Under the pieces are notes generated by a model. It was not told where the DNA came from. It saw nothing but the letters and a program-made list of their open reading frames with translations, and ran no database searches. This document shows positions 30,086-41,088 of a DNA stretch of 64,000 bases, one piece after another (within the stretch, counting starts at the first letter, position 1; every line of letters begins with the position of its first letter). The stretch comes from an uncultured Acidobacteriota bacterium (lineage in GTDB: Bacteria; Acidobacteriota; Vicinamibacteria; Vicinamibacterales; 2-12-FULL-66-21): assembly GCA_963773005.1 (NCBI GenBank), contig CAVYZR010000008.1:545469-609468 (forward strand), given 5' to 3'. Made by a program: the position numbers and the translations under genes.

Positions 30086-30256
30086 TGAGATGGCGTTTCG
30101 TGTCGTCACCAGGAGATCCGGAGGAAGGTTTCTAAGACCACACGCCTCCTGATCTTCTGGTCTCCTGTGACTCGTGCCTTTACCACCTCGACACTATTCC
30201 ATCTCGGGTATGCTGAACACGCCGATCGGGGTGGCGTTGGCGGCGGTGATGGAACT

Positions 30257-31255
30257 ATGTCGAATCCTGAGACAGGAGGTTCGCGGCCAATCACGCGCGT
30301 GATGATCGTGGATGATGAGCCGGTCGTGGCCGAGGTCCTCCGACGGCTCCTGGTGAAGGAGGGGTACCACGCGGACGTCTTCCACGACGGTCAGGCGGCG
30401 CTCGATGCGCTGCCGGAGGTGCGCCCGCACCTGGTCCTTCTCGACGTGAACATGCCCGGCCTCAGCGGCATAGACGTCTGCCGCCGCCTGAAACAGGATC
30501 TTGCGCATCGGTTGACACCGGTCGTGATGGTGACGGGCCAGGCGCAACGGGACGCCAGGCTCGAAGGGCTCGAAGCCGGCGCCGACGACTTCCTCGCGAA
30601 GCCGGTCGACCCTCAGGAACTGATGATCCGGGTTCGCTCCCTCGTGCGCATCAAACGCTATACCGACGACCTCGATTCGGCGGCGTCGCTCATCGTCGCG
30701 ATGGCCCTGCTCGTCGAGGCGAGGGACGGCAACACCGAAGGCCACTGCCACCGGATGGCGAACTACGCCACCGCGCTCGGCAGGGCACTCAACCTGAGCG
30801 AGGAAGACCTGCACGCGCTCCGCCGCGGCGGCTTCCTCCACGACATCGGGATGCTAGCCATCCCCGATGAGGTGCTCAGGAAAACCGGACCGCTTGACGC
30901 CCCGCAATTCGAGTTGATGAAGTCCCACACGACCGTCGGCGATGCCCTCTGCGCCAACCTGCGATCGCTCGAGTCGGTCAGACCGATCGTGCGGCATCAC
31001 CATGAGCGGTACGATGGGTCCGGTTATCCTGACGGACTGCGCGGCGACGACATACCGCTCGTCGCGCAGATCGTCGGGCTCGTCGACGTCTACGACGCGG
31101 TGACGACTCGCCGTCCGTATCAAGGGCCGCACACTCCGCAGGAAGCGATCGCCATCCTGCGAGCGCAGGCCGAGCGCGGGTGGCGACGCCCAGACCTCGT
31201 CGAGGCTTTTGCGGGGCTCGTCGAGAGCGGGCGTCTCGACACGTTTCGGGGCTAG
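30257..31255 (+). CDS. response regulator receiver + HD-GYP phosphodiesterase
   Basis: ATG 30257 within track ORF 30167..31255. REC region (RVMIVDDEPVV...LVLLDVNMPGLSG...DDFLAKP) and HD-GYP region (HCHRMANY...GFLHDIGM...HHERYDGSGYPDGL). Confidence 0.8.
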   Translation: MSNPETGGSRPITRVMIVDDEPVVAEVLRRLLVKEGYHADVFHDGQAALDALPEVRPHLVLLDVNMPGLSGIDVCRRLKQDLAHRLTPVVMVTGQAQRDARLEGLEAGADDFLAKPVDPQELMIRVRSLVRIKRYTDDLDSAASLIVAMALLVEARDGNTEGHCHRMANYATALGRALNLSEEDLHALRRGGFLHDIGMLAIPDEVLRKTGPLDAPQFELMKSHTTVGDALCANLRSLESVRPIVRHHHERYDGSGYPDGLRGDDIPLVAQIVGLVDVYDAVTTRRPYQGPHTPQEAIAILRAQAERGWRRPDLVEAFAGLVESGRLDTFRG

Positions 31256-31346
31256 GCTGACCATATACGACGCCGTCAAATCTGCCAAAAAGCATTTCAC
31301 CGCGGACCGCGCCGAGGACGCAGAGCAATATGATCTTTCTCTGCGG

Positions 31347-31637
31347 ACTCAGCGGCCTTGTATGTTCAGTATGAATTGAATGATGGCTGTGGAAATGTGG
31401 GAATCTCGGTTTGTGAGATTTCCACATTTCCATAGCCTGGAAACTTCCGGGACGCCGGGAGAGGGCCTCGGTGACACTGGTCGGCGGATTGGCTGCTAGC
31501 CCGGCGCAGAGAGGAGTGCCCGGGGCCCGTTGTGTGACGTCGGACAGATCGGACGGTCTCGAATGCCGCTCCTGCGGAGCTGAGCATGAATGCACAAGGC
31601 TGATCAGCACACGACGTCGCGGAGCACGGAGGAATCG
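31347..31637 (+). ncRNA. candidate IS110 bridge/guide RNA region (5' non-coding arm)
   Basis: 23-bp stem (31385-31407 with 31415-31437) whose only non-Watson-Crick pairs are two G-U pairs valid on the + strand only. A further stem at 31444-31461. CGCAGAGAG (31505-31513) is the reverse complement of right-end CTCTCTGCG (32623-31). CTGCGGA (31572-78) is identical to the left junction (31341-47). Exact RNA ends unknown. Confidence 0.45.
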
Positions 31638-32609
31638 ATGGCATACGCGTATCTCGGGATTGACATCGCCAAGCGGAAGTACGATGTGGCGCTCCGGTTG
31701 CCAGACGCGCGCGTGCGGGTGAAAGCCTTTGCCAATGACGCCGCGGGCCACGCCGCGCTGCGGAGCTGGATCGCGCGCTACCACGCAGGCCCGGTGCACG
31801 CGTGTCTGGAGGCCACGGGTACCTATGGCGACGGAGTGGCAGAGACCCTCGCGGATGCAGGCCTCGTGGTCAGTGTGGTCAATCCCGCGATCATCGAGGC
31901 GTATGCGCGCAGTTGTCTGACCCGCACCAAAACCGACCCGACGGATGCCCGGCTGATTGCGCAGTTCTGTGCGACGCAGCAGCCGCGGCCATGGGTACCT
32001 CTGCCGCCAGAGGTGCGCGCACTGCAGGCCCTTGTGCGCCGGCTCGACGCGCTCGAGGGGATGCGCACGCAAGAGCGCAACCGGCTCGCCGCCGACCCGT
32101 CGGCCGAGGTGCGCGATTCTCTCACGCATGTGATTGCACTCCTCGAAGCGGAGATGGAGGCCGTTCGGCTGCGCATCCGCGCGCATGTCGATCAGCACCC
32201 GCACCTGCGCCAGCAACGCGACCTCCTGACGTCGATTCCGGGGATCGGCGACGCGACGGCCGCGGTGCTGCTCGCCGAATTCGGTTCGATGGGCCGCTTC
32301 CGCCAGGCCCGCGCGGCGGCGGCCTTTGCGGGCGTCGTGCCACGCGAGGGTCGCTCTGGAACCTCCCTGCGCCGTCGCCCGCGCCTCTCGAAGCTCGGCG
32401 CCCCGGCGATTCGCAAGGCTCTGTATTTTCCGGCGCTCACTGCCTTGCGCTGTAACCCGATCGCGCAGCGGCTGCAGGCGCGGCTACTCGCCGACGGCAA
32501 ACACCGGATGCTCATCGTGGGCGCGGTGATGCGCAAACTCGTCCACCTGGCCTTCGGGGTGCTCAAGACGGGCCAACCCTTTCGACCAGACTTCGCGCAG
32601 ACCCGTTGA
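31638..32609 (+). CDS. IS110-family (DEDD) transposase/recombinase
   Basis: ATG 31638 with GGAGG upstream. N-terminal DEDD-type region (YLGIDIAKRKYDVAL...ACLEATGTYG...KTDPTDA). C-terminal Transposase_20-like region (IPGIGDATAAVLLAEFG...FAGVVPREGRSGTS...KLGAPAIRKALY). Confidence 0.85.
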   Translation: MAYAYLGIDIAKRKYDVALRLPDARVRVKAFANDAAGHAALRSWIARYHAGPVHACLEATGTYGDGVAETLADAGLVVSVVNPAIIEAYARSCLTRTKTDPTDARLIAQFCATQQPRPWVPLPPEVRALQALVRRLDALEGMRTQERNRLAADPSAEVRDSLTHVIALLEAEMEAVRLRIRAHVDQHPHLRQQRDLLTSIPGIGDATAAVLLAEFGSMGRFRQARAAAAFAGVVPREGRSGTSLRRRPRLSKLGAPAIRKALYFPALTALRCNPIAQRLQARLLADGKHRMLIVGAVMRKLVHLAFGVLKTGQPFRPDFAQTR

Positions 32610-32677
32610 CTTGCAACACGGTCTCTCTGCGGTGAGAAGCTTTAGACAGTTCTTTTTGACTTATCCGCTTCCTCCAC

Positions 32678-32706
32678 TTGCCATCCCCAGAGCCCCCGCG
32701 TAGGAT
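32678..32706 (+). promoter_or_regulatory. candidate sigma70-like promoter of the Ser/Thr kinase gene
   Basis: TTGCCA (32678-83) - 17 nt - TAGGAT (32701-06), 31 nt upstream of GTG 32737. Pattern match only. Confidence 0.3.
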
Positions 32707-32736
32707 CGCGGCACACCCGTCACGCCCGGAGGCGCC

Positions 32737-35610
32737 GTGATCGGCAGCCAGATTTCACACTACCGCATTCTCTCGAAAATCGGCCAGGGGGGGATGGGCG
32801 AGGTGTATCTGGCGGAGGATCTTCGACTCGATCGCAAGGTCGCGCTCAAGTTCCTGCCTGAAGGCCAGGCTCCCGACGAGACGGCACGACGGCGTCTCCT
32901 GCGAGAAGCCAACGCTGCGGCGCGGCTCGATCATCCGTTCATCACGAAGGTCTACGAGGTCGGCGAGGGCGCGCCTGCGGCGGGAGATCCGGGAATCCCC
33001 TTTATCGCCATGGAGCTCGTCGAGGGTGAGACGCTCAAGGCCCGTCTCGCCCGCGGCCCGTTGCCGATGGCCGACGCCCTGCGCATTGCCTCGGAGATTG
33101 CCGAAGCGCTCGAATTCGCGCGCCAGCGCGGCATCGTTCATCGCGATCTGAAGCCGGCCAACGTGATGCTGACCTCCGACGGCCACGCCAAAGTCATGGA
33201 CTTCGGCATCGCCAAGCACGTGTCCATCCGCGGGGCGGACGGAGGCCGCGTCGACGGCCCGAGCATGACGTCCACCGGCGAGATCACGGGCACGCCGGCG
33301 TACATGGCACCCGAGCAGCTGAAAGGCCTGCCGGTCGATTCCCGCGCCGACATCTTCGCGCTTGGCGTGTGCCTGTACGAGATGGTGACCGGCACGCATC
33401 CGTTCATGAAGGACTCGGCATTTGCGACCGCCGATGTCATCTTGAACCAGCCGGCGCCGCCGCTCGATCGCTATCTCAAAGACCCGCCGCCGGGGCTCGA
33501 GCACGTTTTTCGCCGGGCGCTCGCCAAGGAACCCGATGAGCGCTATCAGTCGTTCAAGGATCTCCGAATCGATCTCGGAGCGGTCGAGTTGCCGCAGACG
33601 CGGACGGCCATCGCGCCACCCGTTCGCGCGCGCACGCGGCCGAAATGGCAGCTCGCGGCCGTGGTCGCGCTCGGCATTGTCGCCGCCAGCGGGCTGGCGT
33701 GGTGGCTGTGGCCGATGCAACTCAGCATCTCGCAGCGCGCGCTGGCCTTCAACCAGCGCGACTGGATCGTGATTACCGACTTCGAGAACCTCACGGGCGA
33801 CCCGGTCTTCGACCGGTCGCTGCGCGTGGCCCTCGACGTCGCGATTGCGCAATCTCAGTACGTCAACGTCTTTCCCTCGAGTCGGGTGCAGGAAACGCTC
33901 CGGCTCATGAAGAAAGACGCCGGAGCGCCGCTGAACGAGGCGCTCGCCTCAGAGATCGCGTTGCGCGAGCGGATTAAGGCGGTGCTCGCGTGCAGCATCA
34001 CCGCCGTCGGCGACTCGTACACGATCACCGCCAAGGTGATCGATCCGCAGACGCGGGCGGCCGTCCAGACCGACTCGGCGCAGGCACGCAGCAAGGACGG
34101 CGTGTTGCCCGCGCTCGACGAGCTCGCGACCCGCGTGCGGCGCAATCTCGGTGAATCACTGAATAGCGTCTCGGCTCAGAAGGTGGCGCTGCCACGGGCG
34201 ACGACCGCATCGCTCGAAGCGTTGCGGCTCTATGCCGAGAGCTCCCGCACTGAGGAGGACGACGTTCGCATGGAGCAGTTGCGGCAGGCGACGGTGGTCG
34301 ATCCCGAGTTCGCGATGGCCCACGCCGCGCTCGGTCATGCCTACTATCTCAGCCCCAACCGTCAGCATCGCCAGGAGGGCGAGGCGCGTTTCGTCAAAGC
34401 GCTCAGTCTTCTCGATCGGCTCAGCCATCGCGAGCGACTGTGGATTACGGCGCTCGCCGAAGATTCGCGCGGCAACCGCGAGTCGGCAATTTCGGCGTAT
34501 CGCACCTACCTGGCCGAGTACCCCGATGATCAGGCGGCCTGGTTCAGGTTGGGATGGACCAATCTGGCGGGTGTGCGCCAGTTCGAGCCAGCGGTGGAGG
34601 CCTTCAAGCGGGTCATCGCGCTCAACCCGTCGAACGCCAACGCGTATGTCAACCTGGCGACATCGTATTCGGCGCTGCGGAACGACCAGGAGGCCGTCAA
34701 GCAGTACCAGCACGCTTTCGATCTCAGCCCAGCGCTCAAGACCGACTCGATCGTCAATCACGAATACGGGTTCGTGCTCATCCGGCTTGGCGACCTTGAT
34801 CGGGCCACCGCCCATTTCGAGCAGATGCTCGCCGAAAAATCCAGCAACAGCCAGGCGCGAGGACACCGGTCTCTCGGATTGCTCGAATCCTATCGCGGTC
34901 GCTACAGCGCGGCCATCGATCACTTCAAGCAGGCGATCGTCATCAATCGCACGAACAAGGCCCAGGTGAGCGAGTTTCGGGACCGCCTGTTCCTCGCGCG
35001 CACCTACCGCGCGAAGGGAATGGCGCAAGCGGCCGCAGAGGAGCTCGACGCCGTGCACCGCCTCGCGAACACCTCCAGGCTGGCGCCGGAATGGCTCAGC
35101 CGCCTCGGGAAGGAAGAAGCGCGGTCGGGCCGGGCGGCACAAGCGCGAGCGACGCTCGGCCTGATGGCCAAAACGGCCGGCGACGCGACCGCCGCGTCGT
35201 CGGTCAACCGGAACACCGCAGCGGAACGCGCGCACTTCGAGATTGTGCAAGGCGAAGTCGAGCTCGCTGAAGGACGCGCGGCCAAGGGCGTCGAGTCCTT
35301 CGAGTCCGCGTATGTCATTGATCCCAACGCCGCCACGCTCGATTCGCTCGCCATGGGGCTTCTCCGCGCCAATCGTCCTGACGAAGCCGCGAAGCGGTTC
35401 GAGGCCATCCTCGAACGCAAGGACTACGGGAGCGAAAGCCAGGAACAGTCGTTCAACGCCCAGATCCGACTGGCCGAAATCTACGCGCGCCTCGGGCGTT
35501 CCGATCAGGCCCGAGAGCTGTCCGAGCGCCTCATCGCGCAGTGGAAGGGCGGCGACGAGGATCTCGTGCTCCTCAAGGACGCTCGCGCGCTGCTGGCCGG
35601 TCTGAAGTAG
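32737..35610 (+). CDS. Ser/Thr protein kinase with TM helix, TolB-N-like domain and TPR repeats
   Basis: GTG start with GGAGG upstream. Hanks kinase motifs GQGGMGEVY, VALK, HRDLKPANVM, DFG, APE. One TM helix (LAAVVALGIVAASGLAWWLW). Long C-terminal TPR-like region. Confidence 0.85.
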   Translation: MIGSQISHYRILSKIGQGGMGEVYLAEDLRLDRKVALKFLPEGQAPDETARRRLLREANAAARLDHPFITKVYEVGEGAPAAGDPGIPFIAMELVEGETLKARLARGPLPMADALRIASEIAEALEFARQRGIVHRDLKPANVMLTSDGHAKVMDFGIAKHVSIRGADGGRVDGPSMTSTGEITGTPAYMAPEQLKGLPVDSRADIFALGVCLYEMVTGTHPFMKDSAFATADVILNQPAPPLDRYLKDPPPGLEHVFRRALAKEPDERYQSFKDLRIDLGAVELPQTRTAIAPPVRARTRPKWQLAAVVALGIVAASGLAWWLWPMQLSISQRALAFNQRDWIVITDFENLTGDPVFDRSLRVALDVAIAQSQYVNVFPSSRVQETLRLMKKDAGAPLNEALASEIALRERIKAVLACSITAVGDSYTITAKVIDPQTRAAVQTDSAQARSKDGVLPALDELATRVRRNLGESLNSVSAQKVALPRATTASLEALRLYAESSRTEEDDVRMEQLRQATVVDPEFAMAHAALGHAYYLSPNRQHRQEGEARFVKALSLLDRLSHRERLWITALAEDSRGNRESAISAYRTYLAEYPDDQAAWFRLGWTNLAGVRQFEPAVEAFKRVIALNPSNANAYVNLATSYSALRNDQEAVKQYQHAFDLSPALKTDSIVNHEYGFVLIRLGDLDRATAHFEQMLAEKSSNSQARGHRSLGLLESYRGRYSAAIDHFKQAIVINRTNKAQVSEFRDRLFLARTYRAKGMAQAAAEELDAVHRLANTSRLAPEWLSRLGKEEARSGRAAQARATLGLMAKTAGDATAASSVNRNTAAERAHFEIVQGEVELAEGRAAKGVESFESAYVIDPNAATLDSLAMGLLRANRPDEAAKRFEAILERKDYGSESQEQSFNAQIRLAEIYARLGRSDQARELSERLIAQWKGGDEDLVLLKDARALLAGLK

Positions 35611-40139: not shown

Positions 40140-40200
40140 GTTCTGAGGAGGTTAGCGGCTTTGGTACCGTGTCACAAGGTCACTCTGCAAGAGCCATTCA

Positions 40201-40372
40201 CCGCTGAGAACGCGGAGCTCGCAGAGCCTTTTCAAAGAGCATGAGAGCGATTGCCTGTTCTTTGTCGCTTGTAGTGTCCGGCTTTAGCCGGACGTCAGTC
40301 GGTCCGCCTAAAGGTGGACACTACGGACAAATGAAAGCGTTAGAGCCTCTGCGTGTTCAGTGTCCTCAGCGG
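40201..40372. repeat. REP-like composite element between RR and HK genes
   Basis: Central hairpin GTAGTGTCC (40271-79) with GGACACTAC (40316-24) enclosing GGCTTTAGCCGGAC...GTCCGCCTAAAGG. Flanked by an imperfect ~28-bp inverted repeat (40201-40228 with 40343-40372). Confidence 0.7.
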
Positions 40373-40401
40373 TGAAAGGCTTTGGCGGCAAACCAAGACG
40401 A

Positions 40402-41088
40402 CTATTGTGCGGCGCCCCGCGGCTCGAGCACGTAGCCGACGCCGCGCACGGTGTGCAGGAGCTTCGTTTCGAACCCCTTGTCGATCTTCTCGCGCAGCCG
40501 CGAGACGAGGACGTCGACCACGTTCGTCCCCGGGTTGAAGTTGTACCCCCAGACATGCGAGAGGATCATTGTCTTGGAGATCACGCGGCCCGGGTTGCGC
40601 ATCAGGTACTCGAGCAGGGCAAACTCTCGCGGGCGGAGATCGAGCGCGGCGCCGGCGCGCTCGGTCCTTCGCGTCAGCAGATCGATCGACAGATCACCGG
40701 CCGTGAGGCGGGTCGGCTCGGTCGCGCCGGTCGAGCGTCGAATGAGGGCCTGGACGCGCGCAATCAGCTCGGCGAAGGCGAACGGCTTGGTCAGGTAGTC
40801 ATCGCTCCCCGCCTGCAGGCCGCGGACGCGATCGTCCACGGTCCGCCGCGCGCTCAGGATCAGCACGGGCGTCCGCACGCCGCGGGCGCGCATCCGATCG
40901 ATGAGCGAGAGACCGTCGAGCTTCGGCAGCATCACGTCGATGATGGCGACGTCGTAAGCACCCTGGATGGCAAGTTCCAGGCCCTGTTCGCCGTCGGCCG
41001 CAGTGTCCATCGCAAACCCGGCCTCTGCGAGCCCCTTGCCCACAAAGTCGGCAATCGTCGCGTCGTCTTCGACGATGAGCACCCGCAT
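40402..41088 (-). CDS. OmpR-family response regulator
   Basis: 228 aa. REC region (MRVLIVEDD...IIDVMLPKLDG...DDYLTKPF) and a winged-helix C-terminus (LLEYLMRNPGRVISKTMILSHVWGYNF...LHTVRGVGY). Confidence 0.9.
   Translation of the reverse strand: MRVLIVEDDATIADFVGKGLAEAGFAMDTAADGEQGLELAIQGAYDVAIIDVMLPKLDGLSLIDRMRARGVRTPVLILSARRTVDDRVRGLQAGSDDYLTKPFAFAELIARVQALIRRSTGATEPTRLTAGDLSIDLLTRRTERAGAALDLRPREFALLEYLMRNPGRVISKTMILSHVWGYNFNPGTNVVDVLVSRLREKIDKGFETKLLHTVRGVGYVLEPRGAAQ

What the first reader, a model, noticed from the sequence alone, without database searches (positions are those of the whole stretch)
31338..32632. IS110-family element with a long, RNA-structured 5' arm: candidate uncharacterised bridge (guide) RNA, inserted in a REP-like hairpin
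Seen in sequence. A DEDD/IS110-type recombinase ORF (31638-32609) sits in a ~1286-bp block bracketed by a perfect 9-bp direct repeat TCTCTGCGG (31338-46 and 32624-32). Only ~23 bp follow the ORF, but ~290 bp of lower-GC non-coding DNA precede it. That arm has a 23-bp stem (31385-31407 with 31415-31437, 7-nt loop). Its only two non-Watson-Crick positions are G-U pairs that work on the transposase-sense transcript and would be C-A on the other strand, which points to selection at the RNA level. Inside the arm, CGCAGAGAG (31505-13) is the exact reverse complement of the right-end junction CTCTCTGCG (32623-31). CTGCGGA (31572-78) repeats the left junction (31341-47) in sense; this 7-mer match is weak evidence on its own. 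One antisense plus one sense match is what guide loops reading opposite strands would give. The reconstructed empty site (CGCAGAG-N13-CTCTGCGG|TGAGAAGCTTT) resembles the REP-like element at 40343-40385. Established knowledge: IS110-family recombinases (IS621) use an element-encoded bridge RNA with target- and donor-binding loops, and family members frequently target REP sequences. Inference: this copy encodes its own, uncharacterised bridge RNA whose programmable specificity could be read from the loops.
Basis: partly seen in the sequence, partly recalled or inferred. Interest (0 to 1): 0.75.

Follow-up and report, generated by a model that had tools for sequence, protein, structure and literature searches.

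The report
IS621-like insertion sequence with bridge RNA
This is an ordinary member of the IS110/IS621 family of mobile elements, sitting in a repeated palindrome between two genes. Its 5' arm encodes the known type of "bridge" guide RNA, so it adds a new example rather than a new mechanism.

Summary
The ORF 31638-32609 is an IS110 recombinase. It is 47% identical to IS621 and has the D9/E58/D100/D103/S240 catalytic set.

The upstream arm folds into a 5' hairpin (31385-31437), a small hairpin (31444-31461) and two stem-loops with internal loops (31463-31528 and 31536-31618). Compensatory changes across about 60-75 distinct relatives support the last two. The loop strands behave as in the IS621 bridge RNA:
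- LTG 31482-90
- RTG, core-binding bases and handshake guide 31505-13
- LDG 31553-61
- RDG 31594-99

They covary with flanking target or element ends in relatives and in identical copies at five or more other sites.

Corrections:
- The element runs from core CT 31357-58 to core CT 32625-26, not between the 9-bp repeats.
- The 9-bp repeat is not a target duplication.

The target is a REP-like palindrome, and window 40365-66 is an orthologous empty site for a sister element. The only unusual feature is the elongated, sequence-conserved 24-bp 5' hairpin. Verdict: new member of a known kind, with modest interest. There are no expression or activity data.

The parts
31357..32626 (+). Whole element with a core CT at each end. 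The unit is 1268 bp when one core is counted.
   Evidence: Seven contigs carry a 0/1266-mismatch copy. They give four distinct left flanks besides the window's own and four distinct full right flanks. Identity breaks exactly at LT7|CT and within RT. Sister copies L087, L088 and L082-L086 show the same breaks.
31289..31356 (.). Left part of the REP-like target palindrome. It includes the left copy of the 9-bp repeat (31338-46) and LT1-7 CAGCGGC (31350-56).
   Evidence: Inverted repeat 31289-31306 / 32626-32643 (I3). Similar flanks occur in L083, L084, L087, L088 and L093.
31357..31358 (+). Left core dinucleotide CT
   Evidence: This is the first position shared by all copies. 40 of 58 relatives have CT here.
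31359..31366 (+). Right donor (RD) TGTATGTT. It contains the -10 hexamer TATGTT (31361-66) of the promoter formed at the circle junction.
   Evidence: Invariant in the 10 aligned relatives. TGTATGT is present upstream of the ORF in most of the 88 loci held. The spacer to TTGACT is 17 bp in the joined ends.
31385..31437 (+). 5' stem-loop SL1: 23-24 bp, 5-7 nt loop, with two G-U pairs
   Evidence: The basal pairs covary (GC/CG/AU/UA). The G-U positions become G-C or A-U in relatives. The sequence of the distal 16 bp is nearly invariant.
31444..31461 (+). Small hairpin SL2 (CUUCCGG GAC GCCGGGAG)
   Evidence: Seven pairs, with covariation at the closing pair. It is also present in the 61%-identity clade.
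31463..31528 (+). Target-binding stem-loop (TBL). Stems 31463-71/31520-28, 31473/31519 and 31475-78/31515-18. Distal hairpin 31491-31501.
   Evidence: Model R1 has one hit in the window, at 31461-31529, E 1.4e-17. 12 of 14 pairs show compensatory changes and 97% of cells pair, against 38-44% when partners are slid.
31482..31490 (+). Left target guide (LTG) CGGCGGA + UU. It has the same sense as LT1-7 + core.
   Evidence: The identical element sits next to CGGCGGA|CT in L095 (7/7). At the other sites LT is CAGCGGC, CAGCGAC or CAGCGTT. In sister L088 the guide changes GA to TG and the flank reads GCGTG. Family-wide match is 7.2/9 against 4.9 +/- 0.15 shuffled.
31505..31513 (+). Right target guide CGCAG (31505-09), core-binding AG (31510-11) and handshake guide AG (31512-13)
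   Evidence: The reverse complement tracks the right junction in relatives: CTGCG, CGGCG, TAGCG, CTCCG. RT match is 4.6/7 against 2.6 +/- 0.17 shuffled. The handshake guide is AG where LD6-7 is CT (16/16) and AT where it is AT (32/48).
31536..31618 (+). Donor-binding stem-loop (DBL). Stems 31536-42/31612-18 and 31547-52/31600-05. Distal hairpin 31563-87.
   Evidence: Model R2 has one hit in the window, at 31533-31621, E 1.3e-28, and hits 87 of 89 sources. 19 of 23 pairs show compensatory changes. Its top hit in a real IS621 copy falls on the IS621 DBL.
31553..31561 (+). Left donor guide (LDG) ACGGUCUCG. It has the same sense as the right end ACGGTCT|CT.
   Evidence: 8/9 identity to 32618-26. 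Relatives with LDG ACGGTAT or ACAGTAT have the matching right ends. IS621 has ACAGUAUCA against ACAGTAT|CT.
31572..31578 (+). It is the last pair, the apical loop and the first 3' bases of the DBL distal hairpin, and it is not a guide.
   Evidence: The loop varies in length and sequence among relatives without tracking the flanks.
31594..31599 (+). Right donor guide ACAAG (complementary to CT+TGT at 31357-61) plus handshake base G31599
   Evidence: The base after CAAG pairs with LT7 in 50 of 58 loci, including G-T. L006 and L007 have A where LT7 is T.
31628..31633 (+). Ribosome-binding site GGAGGA, 4 nt before the ATG
   Evidence: Read from the sequence.
31638..32609 (+). IS110-type recombinase, 323 aa
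   Evidence: Pfam PF01548 + PF02371. IS621 structure 8wt6, E 1.5e-79. 47% identity to IS621, with D9, E58, D100, D103 and S240 present.
32606..32611 (+). -35 hexamer TTGACT of the circle-junction promoter. It overlaps the stop codon.
   Evidence: TTGAC is invariant in the right ends of relatives. TTGACT-17-TATGTT forms once the ends are joined. No promoter-like site precedes the RNA in the integrated copy.
32618..32624 (+). Left donor LD1-7 ACGGTCT, the last element-specific bases
32625..32626 (+). Right core dinucleotide CT
   Evidence: Three results fix it. Only this choice aligns without a gap to an orthologous empty site. It gives the handshake pairing. It gives the same promoter register as IS621.
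32627..32643 (.). Right target (RT CTGCGGT...) and right arm of the REP-like palindrome. The right copy of the 9-bp repeat (32624-32) spans LD7 + core + RT1-6.
   Evidence: Position 32628 is A in L092 and T elsewhere for the identical element, so it is target DNA. Inverted repeat with 31289-31306.

Best explanation
A 1268-bp insertion sequence of the IS110 group, close to IS621, has inserted at a CT inside a roughly 100-bp REP-like palindrome. The site lies between a response-regulator/HD-domain gene and a Ser/Thr kinase gene.

**Inferred mechanism, following IS621**
1. Excision joins the ends into a circle. This creates the promoter TTGACT-17-TATGTT across the core.
2. Transcription starts near 31373. 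It yields an RNA of about 250 nt, roughly 31373-31620, that precedes and may be continuous with the recombinase mRNA.
3. The RNA has a long 5' hairpin, a small hairpin, a target-binding loop and a donor-binding loop.
4. [quoted passage not shown] 5. [quoted passage not shown] 6. AG (31512-13) and G31599 are handshake bases. They pair with the other DNA partner after top-strand exchange.
7. The DEDD/Ser recombinase then exchanges strands at CT.

**Shown here:** protein family and catalytic residues, element ends, RNA fold with covariation, guide-to-flank covariation, and identical copies at several sites.

**Inferred:** transcription, RNA ends, and the chemistry.
For: **Protein**
-.

**Element ends**
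- Identical copies (0/1266 mismatches) carry different flanks, as do sister copies.
- Window 40345-40524 aligns without gaps to the reconstructed empty site of L084/L086 only if the right core is 32625-26.

**RNA fold**
- In the 10-sequence consensus, 19 of 80 pairs show compensatory changes.
- In larger sets, 12/14 (TBL) and 19/23 (DBL) pairs show compensatory changes. No shuffle in 500 reaches the observed values, and the slid-partner controls collapse.
- Each model hits once per locus, on the + strand, just upstream of the ORF.

**Guides**
- RT match is 4.6/7 against 2.6 shuffled. LT match is 7.2/9 against 4.9 shuffled. Both are 0/5000.
- L095 gives a 7/7 LT match for the identical element.
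- The L088 guide and flank change together.
- Handshake correlations hold, matching PMC11208158.

**Link to IS621**
- The DBL model's best hit in a real IS621 copy is its DBL, E 0.024.
- The donor and promoter register is identical: TTGCAG-17-TATTAT against TTGACT-17-TATGTT.
- The architecture matches PMC11208160.
Against: - There is no transcript or activity evidence for this element.
- Rfam 15 returned no bridge RNA family for this region, only sub-threshold chance matches to unrelated families, so nothing curated confirms it.
- The TBL model does not detect the IS621 TBL above noise.
- At the window's own site the pairing is imperfect. LT is 5 Watson-Crick + 1 wobble of 7, the core is read as UU, and RT is 5 of 7.
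- The LTG register is ambiguous by +/-1 in some relatives.
- Shuffle controls do not remove relatedness, and some loci may be inherited copies of the same insertion.
- The pair counts were made on alignments fitted to the models.
- Several metagenome contigs are chimeric across the repeat.
Confidence: 0.9

Rival explanations
1. The element is the 1286-bp block bracketed by a 9-bp target-site duplication TCTCTGCGG, with guides CGCAGAGAG (antisense) and CTGCGGA (sense).
For: The repeats and both matches exist at the stated coordinates.
Against: - Identical copies share nothing left of 31357 or right of 32627-28.
- Sister elements L003 and L031 differ within 31348-56.
- The 9-mer is not enriched beyond chance.
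- CTGCGGA overlaps a variable apical loop.
- IS110 elements make no target duplication beyond the shared core (PMC11208160).
Confidence: 0.02
2. The 5' arm is only a leader or regulatory region for the recombinase gene, with promoter, attenuator and hairpins. It has no guide function, and target choice is made by the protein.
For: - No RNA data exist for this element.
- The 5' hairpin of IS621 is reported to lower downstream expression (bioRxiv 10.64898/2026.03.19.712850).
- Part of the arm, SL1 and SL2, carries no guide.
Against: - Loop strands change together with flanking host DNA that is not part of the element.
- The loop strands match both element ends in the strand pattern of IS621.
- The recombinase is 47% identical to an enzyme shown to need the RNA (PMC11208160).
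Confidence: 0.03
3. The copy is a dead relic. The RNA and protein features are inherited, but the element no longer moves.
For: Only one copy lies in this 64-kb window. Its own target matches the guides imperfectly.
Against: - The ORF is intact with all five catalytic residues.
- Both ends, the junction promoter and all four guides are intact.
- Copies with 0 of 1266 mismatches occur next to four other left flanks and four other right flanks in related metagenomes, which implies recent movement.
Confidence: 0.05

Closest known systems
IS621 (E. coli; IS110 group) and its 177-nt bridge RNA (PMC11208160, PMC11208158; PDB 8wt6)
   Same: - Recombinase 47% identical, with the same catalytic residues.
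- RNA encoded in the long left end.
- Same order of parts: 5' stem-loop, target loop, donor loop.
- Left guides are sense and right guides are antisense.
- CT core.
- A two-base handshake guide follows the core-binding AG.
- LDG ends in C plus an unpaired base.
- The donor ACGGTCT-CT-TGTATGT compares with ACAGTAT-CT-TGTATTA.
- The junction promoter has the same 17-bp spacer and the same core position.
- REP-type targets.
   Different: - The left end is 279 nt against about 194 nt.
- The 5' hairpin is 23-24 bp and conserved in sequence, and a second small hairpin follows it.
- The right target guide is 5 nt (up to 7 in relatives) against 2-4 nt.
- The core is read as UU instead of CU in the left target guide.
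- The target sequence and the host lineage differ. The only genome hit is a Vicinamibacterales MAG at 61%.
ISPpu10 (Pseudomonas putida; IS110 group), bioRxiv 10.64898/2026.03.19.712850
   Same: An IS110 bridge-RNA element that inserts into REP palindromes in intergenic DNA. Insertion falls in one half of a hairpin-forming target.
   Different: ISPpu10 is reported to lack the 5' stem-loop and to need a target hairpin that forms a terminator with the element end. Here the 5' stem-loop is enlarged, and no terminator-like site is found at the left junction. A requirement for the target hairpin was not tested.
ISCro4 transposase (PDB 9t56)
   Same: Second-best solved relative of the recombinase (E 4.5e-78).
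   Different: Its RNA was not compared here.
IS1111 group elements and their seekRNA / right-end bridge RNA
   Same: Same recombinase superfamily and the same RNA-guided principle.
   Different: In IS1111 the RNA is in a long right end and there are 7-17 bp subterminal inverted repeats (PMC11208160). Here the right end is 17 bp after the stop codon, the RNA is in the left end, and only a 4-bp inverted pair (AACA/TGTT) flanks the donor.

Membership tests
IS110 family, IS110 group (IS621-like bridge recombinase elements) | Recombinase with an N-terminal DEDD RuvC-like domain and a C-terminal Tnp domain carrying the catalytic Ser | tested here: met
   PF01548 + PF02371. D9, E58, D100, D103 and S240 are present and invariant in 76 relatives. 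47% identity to IS621.
IS110 family, IS110 group (IS621-like bridge recombinase elements) | Long non-coding left end, short right end, and no target duplication other than a shared core dinucleotide | tested here: met
   The left end is 279 nt (31359-31637). The right end is 15 nt + core. CT is present at both junctions.
IS110 family, IS110 group (IS621-like bridge recombinase elements) | [quoted passage not shown] | tested here: met
   Consensus fold. Covariation counts. This element also has one extra small hairpin.
IS110 family, IS110 group (IS621-like bridge recombinase elements) | The first internal loop covaries with flanking target DNA: left strand sense, right strand antisense | tested here: met
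   The register of the left guide is uncertain by one base in some relatives.
IS110 family, IS110 group (IS621-like bridge recombinase elements) | The second internal loop matches the element's own ends: left strand sense to the right end, right strand antisense to the left end | tested here: met
   ACGGTCTC at 31553-60 equals 32618-25. ACAAG at 31594-98 is complementary to 31357-61. LDG variants track right-end variants in relatives.
IS110 family, IS110 group (IS621-like bridge recombinase elements) | Handshake bases next to the core-binding bases pair with the non-cognate DNA | tested here: met
   TBL AG against LD6-7 CT, 16/16. AT against AT, 32/48. The DBL base pairs with LT7 in 50/58. Concept from PMC11208158.
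IS110 family, IS110 group (IS621-like bridge recombinase elements) | A sigma-70 type promoter is formed across the core when the ends are joined | tested here: met
   TTGACT-17-TATGTT in the joined ends. Both hexamers are conserved. It is absent in the integrated copy. Same register as IS621. Promoter activity was not tested.
IS110 family, IS110 group (IS621-like bridge recombinase elements) | RNA homologous to the IS621 bridge RNA | tested here: inconclusive
   The DBL model's top hit in an IS621 copy is its DBL, but only at 12 bits, E 0.024. The TBL model gives no signal above noise. Rfam returned no bridge RNA family for this region.
IS110 family, IS110 group (IS621-like bridge recombinase elements) | The RNA is expressed, binds the recombinase and is required for recombination | not testable with these tools
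   Needs RNA-seq, binding assays and recombination assays.
IS1111 group | Guide RNA in a long right end and 7-17 bp subterminal inverted repeats | tested here: not met
   The right end is 17 bp. The RNA models hit only the left end. The inverted pair is only 4 bp.

The most novel reading that the evidence does not exclude
The enlarged 5' module is a clade-specific control device, not a passive homologue of the IS621 5' stem-loop. The module is a 23-24 bp hairpin whose distal 16 bp are nearly invariant in sequence, plus a conserved GGGACGCC-loop hairpin. It might be a stronger brake on recombinase expression, a double-strand RNase processing site that frees the bridge RNA from the mRNA, or an extra protein-binding handle. 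Nothing here tests this. It rests on the length of the stem, its sequence conservation beyond pairing, and a preprint that reports a repressive role for the much shorter IS621 hairpin.
Probability: 0.2. Interest if true: 0.4.

Novelty: new member of a known kind. Interest (0 to 1): 0.25.

Why it matters
- It adds a fully annotated natural bridge-recombinase system from a poorly sampled soil lineage. The ends, core, all four guides, the handshake bases, the junction promoter and the natural target motif are defined.
- The preferred target is about CGGCGGA-CT-CTGCG(CC), inside a REP-like palindrome.
- Such orthologues are useful as candidates for genome-engineering screens and for comparing guide lengths. 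This one has a 5-7 nt right target guide.
- The identical copies at several sites show the element was recently active.
- It does not change what is known about the mechanism.

Tried and rejected
- **Rfam 15 scan of 31000-33000.** It gave only sub-threshold chance hits to microRNA models on the long hairpin and no bridge RNA family.
- **GTDB genome scan with the protein.** It gave one distant locus, so comparative work relied on metagenome contigs and exact-protein look-ups.
- **Right core at 32623-24 (GGT|CT|CTCTGCGG).** This would give a 10-nt contiguous guide match. I rejected it for three reasons. It needs a 2-nt gap against the orthologous empty site. It leaves the AG/AT handshake correlation unexplained. 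It gives a 15-bp promoter spacer, unlike IS621.
- **Right core at 32627-28.** Rejected because L092 has CA there.
- **An intrinsic terminator at the left junction or after the long hairpin.** None was found.
- **The TBL model against IS621.** No usable signal.
- **Naming the source organism through neighbouring genes.** The look-up returned no DNA.
Full report
**1. Observation**

- The ORF 31638-32609 carries the two IS110 Pfam domains.
- TCTCTGCGG occurs at 31338-46 and 32624-32.
- A 23-bp inverted repeat lies at 31385-31407/31415-31437. Its only two exceptions are G-T, which pair as G-U on the + strand.
- CGCAGAGAG at 31505-13 is the reverse complement of 32623-31.
- CTGCGGA occurs at 31572-78 and 31341-47.
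- The arm folds much better than shuffles (z = -5.8).

The 9-mer itself is not remarkable: there are 3 copies in the window against 1.2 expected.

**2. The protein**

- The recombinase matches the solved IS621 transposase at E 1.5e-79. It is 47% identical to an IS621 copy fetched from an E. coli plasmid record.
- D9, E58, D100, D103 and S240 align with the IS621 catalytic residues. They are invariant among 76 relatives.

**3. True ends**

Homologues are abundant in soil metagenomes, mostly on contigs of 1.3-2 kb.

Exact-protein look-ups returned seven contigs whose element body has 0 mismatches in 1266 bp to the window copy.
- They give four left flanks other than the window's own and four full right flanks other than the window's own.
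- Identity starts at CT|TGTATG (31357). It ends within GGTCT|CT|C (32626-27).
- Position 32628 is T or A depending on the site, so it is target DNA.
- Sister elements at 95-96% (L087, L088) and 87% (L082-L086) protein identity show the same breaks.

Three independent results place the right core at 32625-26.
- Window 40345-40524 is more than 90% identical to the flanks of the L084/L086 insertion. It aligns without a gap only with this choice.
- This choice makes the two bases after the core-binding AG complementary to the last two bases of the element.
- It gives TTGACT-17-TATGTT in the joined ends. That is the same register as TTGCAG-17-TATTAT in IS621, with the core at the same spacer position.

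The 9-bp repeat is therefore not a target duplication. Its right copy is LD7 + core + RT1-6. Its left copy is a repeat unit of the target palindrome, 11-19 nt outside the element.

**4. The RNA**

Alignment of ten arms of 68-96% protein relatives gives a consensus fold of 80 pairs, 19 with compensatory changes. Its parts are:
- SL1, 31385-31437
- SL2, 31444-61
- a stem-loop with a large internal loop, 31463-31528
- a second such stem-loop, 31536-31618

I built covariance models of the last two.
- Each hits once per locus, always on the + strand just upstream of the ORF. They hit 66 and 87 of 89 sources, and once each in the window.
- On those alignments, 12 of 14 and 19 of 23 pairs show changes on both sides. 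97% and 92% of cells pair, against 25-44% when partners are slid.
- These alignments were fitted to the models, which favours the structure. The independent MAFFT/RNAalifold result agrees.

**5. Guides**

The strand logic is that published for IS621.

*Donor loop*
- ACGGUCUC (31553-60) is identical to the right end 32618-25.
- ACAAG (31594-98) is complementary to CT+TGT at the left end.
- Relatives with ACGGTAT or ACAGTAT in this strand have the matching right ends.

*Target loop, 3' strand*
- CGCAG-AG-AG (31505-13) is complementary to RT, then the core, then LD6-7.
- In relatives this strand changes with the right flank: CTGCG, CGGCG, TAGCG, CTCCG.

*Target loop, 5' strand*
- CGGCGGA (31482-88) has the same sense as the left target.
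- The identical element lies next to CGGCGGA|CT in L095. At other sites the left target is CAGCGGC, CAGCGAC or CAGCGTT.
- In L088 the guide changes GA to TG and the flank reads ...GCGTG.

*Across 58-59 distinct loci*
- The right guide matches its own flank at 4.6 of 7 positions, against 2.6 +/- 0.17 after shuffling flanks.
- The left guide matches at 7.2 of 9, against 4.9 +/- 0.15. Both are 0 of 5000 shuffles.
- The handshake bases behave as described by Hiraizumi et al. TBL AG goes with LD6-7 CT in 16/16 loci, and AT with AT in 32/48. The DBL base after CAAG pairs with LT7 in 50/58.
- Shuffling does not correct for relatedness, and some loci may be the same inherited insertion. The identical-element and sister-element comparisons are the cleanest evidence.

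- CTGCGGA (31572-78) overlaps the apical loop of the DBL distal hairpin.
- That loop varies freely in length and sequence and does not follow the flanks.
- The same motif recurs inside the ORF.

**6. Target**

The flanks form an imperfect palindrome. AAAGCATTTCACCGCGGA (31289-31306) pairs with TCTGCGGTGAGAAGCTTT (32626-43), and there is an inner CGCAGAG/CTCTGCG pair.

The same kind of sequence flanks relatives in other contigs. A second copy lies at 40190-40385 in the window. Insertion is always in the same half and the same orientation. The element lies between genes and interrupts none.

**7. Comparison with what is known**

The element meets every sequence-level criterion of an IS110-group bridge-RNA element. 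Its donor site and junction promoter align with those of IS621.
- The DBL model's best hit in a real IS621 copy is the IS621 DBL. The score is weak (12 bits, E 0.024).
- The TBL model finds nothing there. This fits the reported low conservation of the first loop.
- Rfam returned no bridge RNA family for this region.

The differences are of degree:
- a longer left end
- a 5-nt right target guide
- UU instead of CU opposite the core in the left guide
- an enlarged 5' module

Relatives at 51-62% identity have one or two short 5' hairpins. This clade has a 23-24 bp SL1 whose distal 16 bp are almost invariant. A preprint reports that the shorter IS621 5' hairpin lowers downstream expression. What SL1 does here is unknown.

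**8. Verdict**

This is a new member of a known kind. The ends, the status of the repeat and one of the two proposed guides needed correction, and the novelty was overstated. No expression or activity data exist for this element.

Noticed in passing
window 40190-40385: A second REP-like palindrome. Its arms (40190-40229 and 40343-40385) are separated by about 113 bp of extra DNA with its own hairpin (GTCCGGCTTTAGCCGGAC), where the orthologous copy in L084 has a loop of about 20 nt. The CT at 40365-66 is the unoccupied counterpart of the site that a sister element (87% protein identity) occupies in L084/L086.
   Followed up: partly
L003:1678-1720: The right junction reads CAACACGGTCTCTCGGCG GTCTCTCGGCG GTGAAGG. 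This is an 11-bp tandem copy of the element's last bases plus core plus right target. It looks like a footprint of an earlier insertion or excision at the same site.
   Followed up: no
L043, L045, L049-L054, L062, L065, L076 (left and right junctions): In this more distant subgroup the left junction carries TT and the right junction CT at the core position, and the left target guide ends in AAUU. This suggests a target core TT recombining with a donor core CT.
   Followed up: no
L089-L095 compared with window 31359-32624: Element copies with 0 of 1266 mismatches occur next to several different flanks in soil metagenomes. Some contigs are chimeric across the repeat. L091 has a foreign left flank but the window's right flank, and L092 is the reverse.
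   Followed up: yes
window 31590-31637: An upstream in-frame ATG at 31590 gives a 339-aa ORF, and some gene callers use it (P0001, L091-L095). That start lies inside the donor-binding stem-loop. The conserved start is 31638, preceded by GGAGGA at 31628-33.
   Followed up: partly
window 32615-32618 and 31363-31366: A 4-bp inverted pair AACA / TGTT flanks the 12-bp donor core region when the ends are joined. It resembles the short subterminal inverted repeat reported for IS110-group elements.
   Followed up: no
window 30167-31255 and 32737-35610: The neighbouring genes are a response-regulator/HD-domain protein (PF00072 + PF13487) and a 957-aa Ser/Thr kinase with TPR repeats. Both are on the + strand, and the element lies in the 1.5-kb gap between them in the same orientation.
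   Followed up: no
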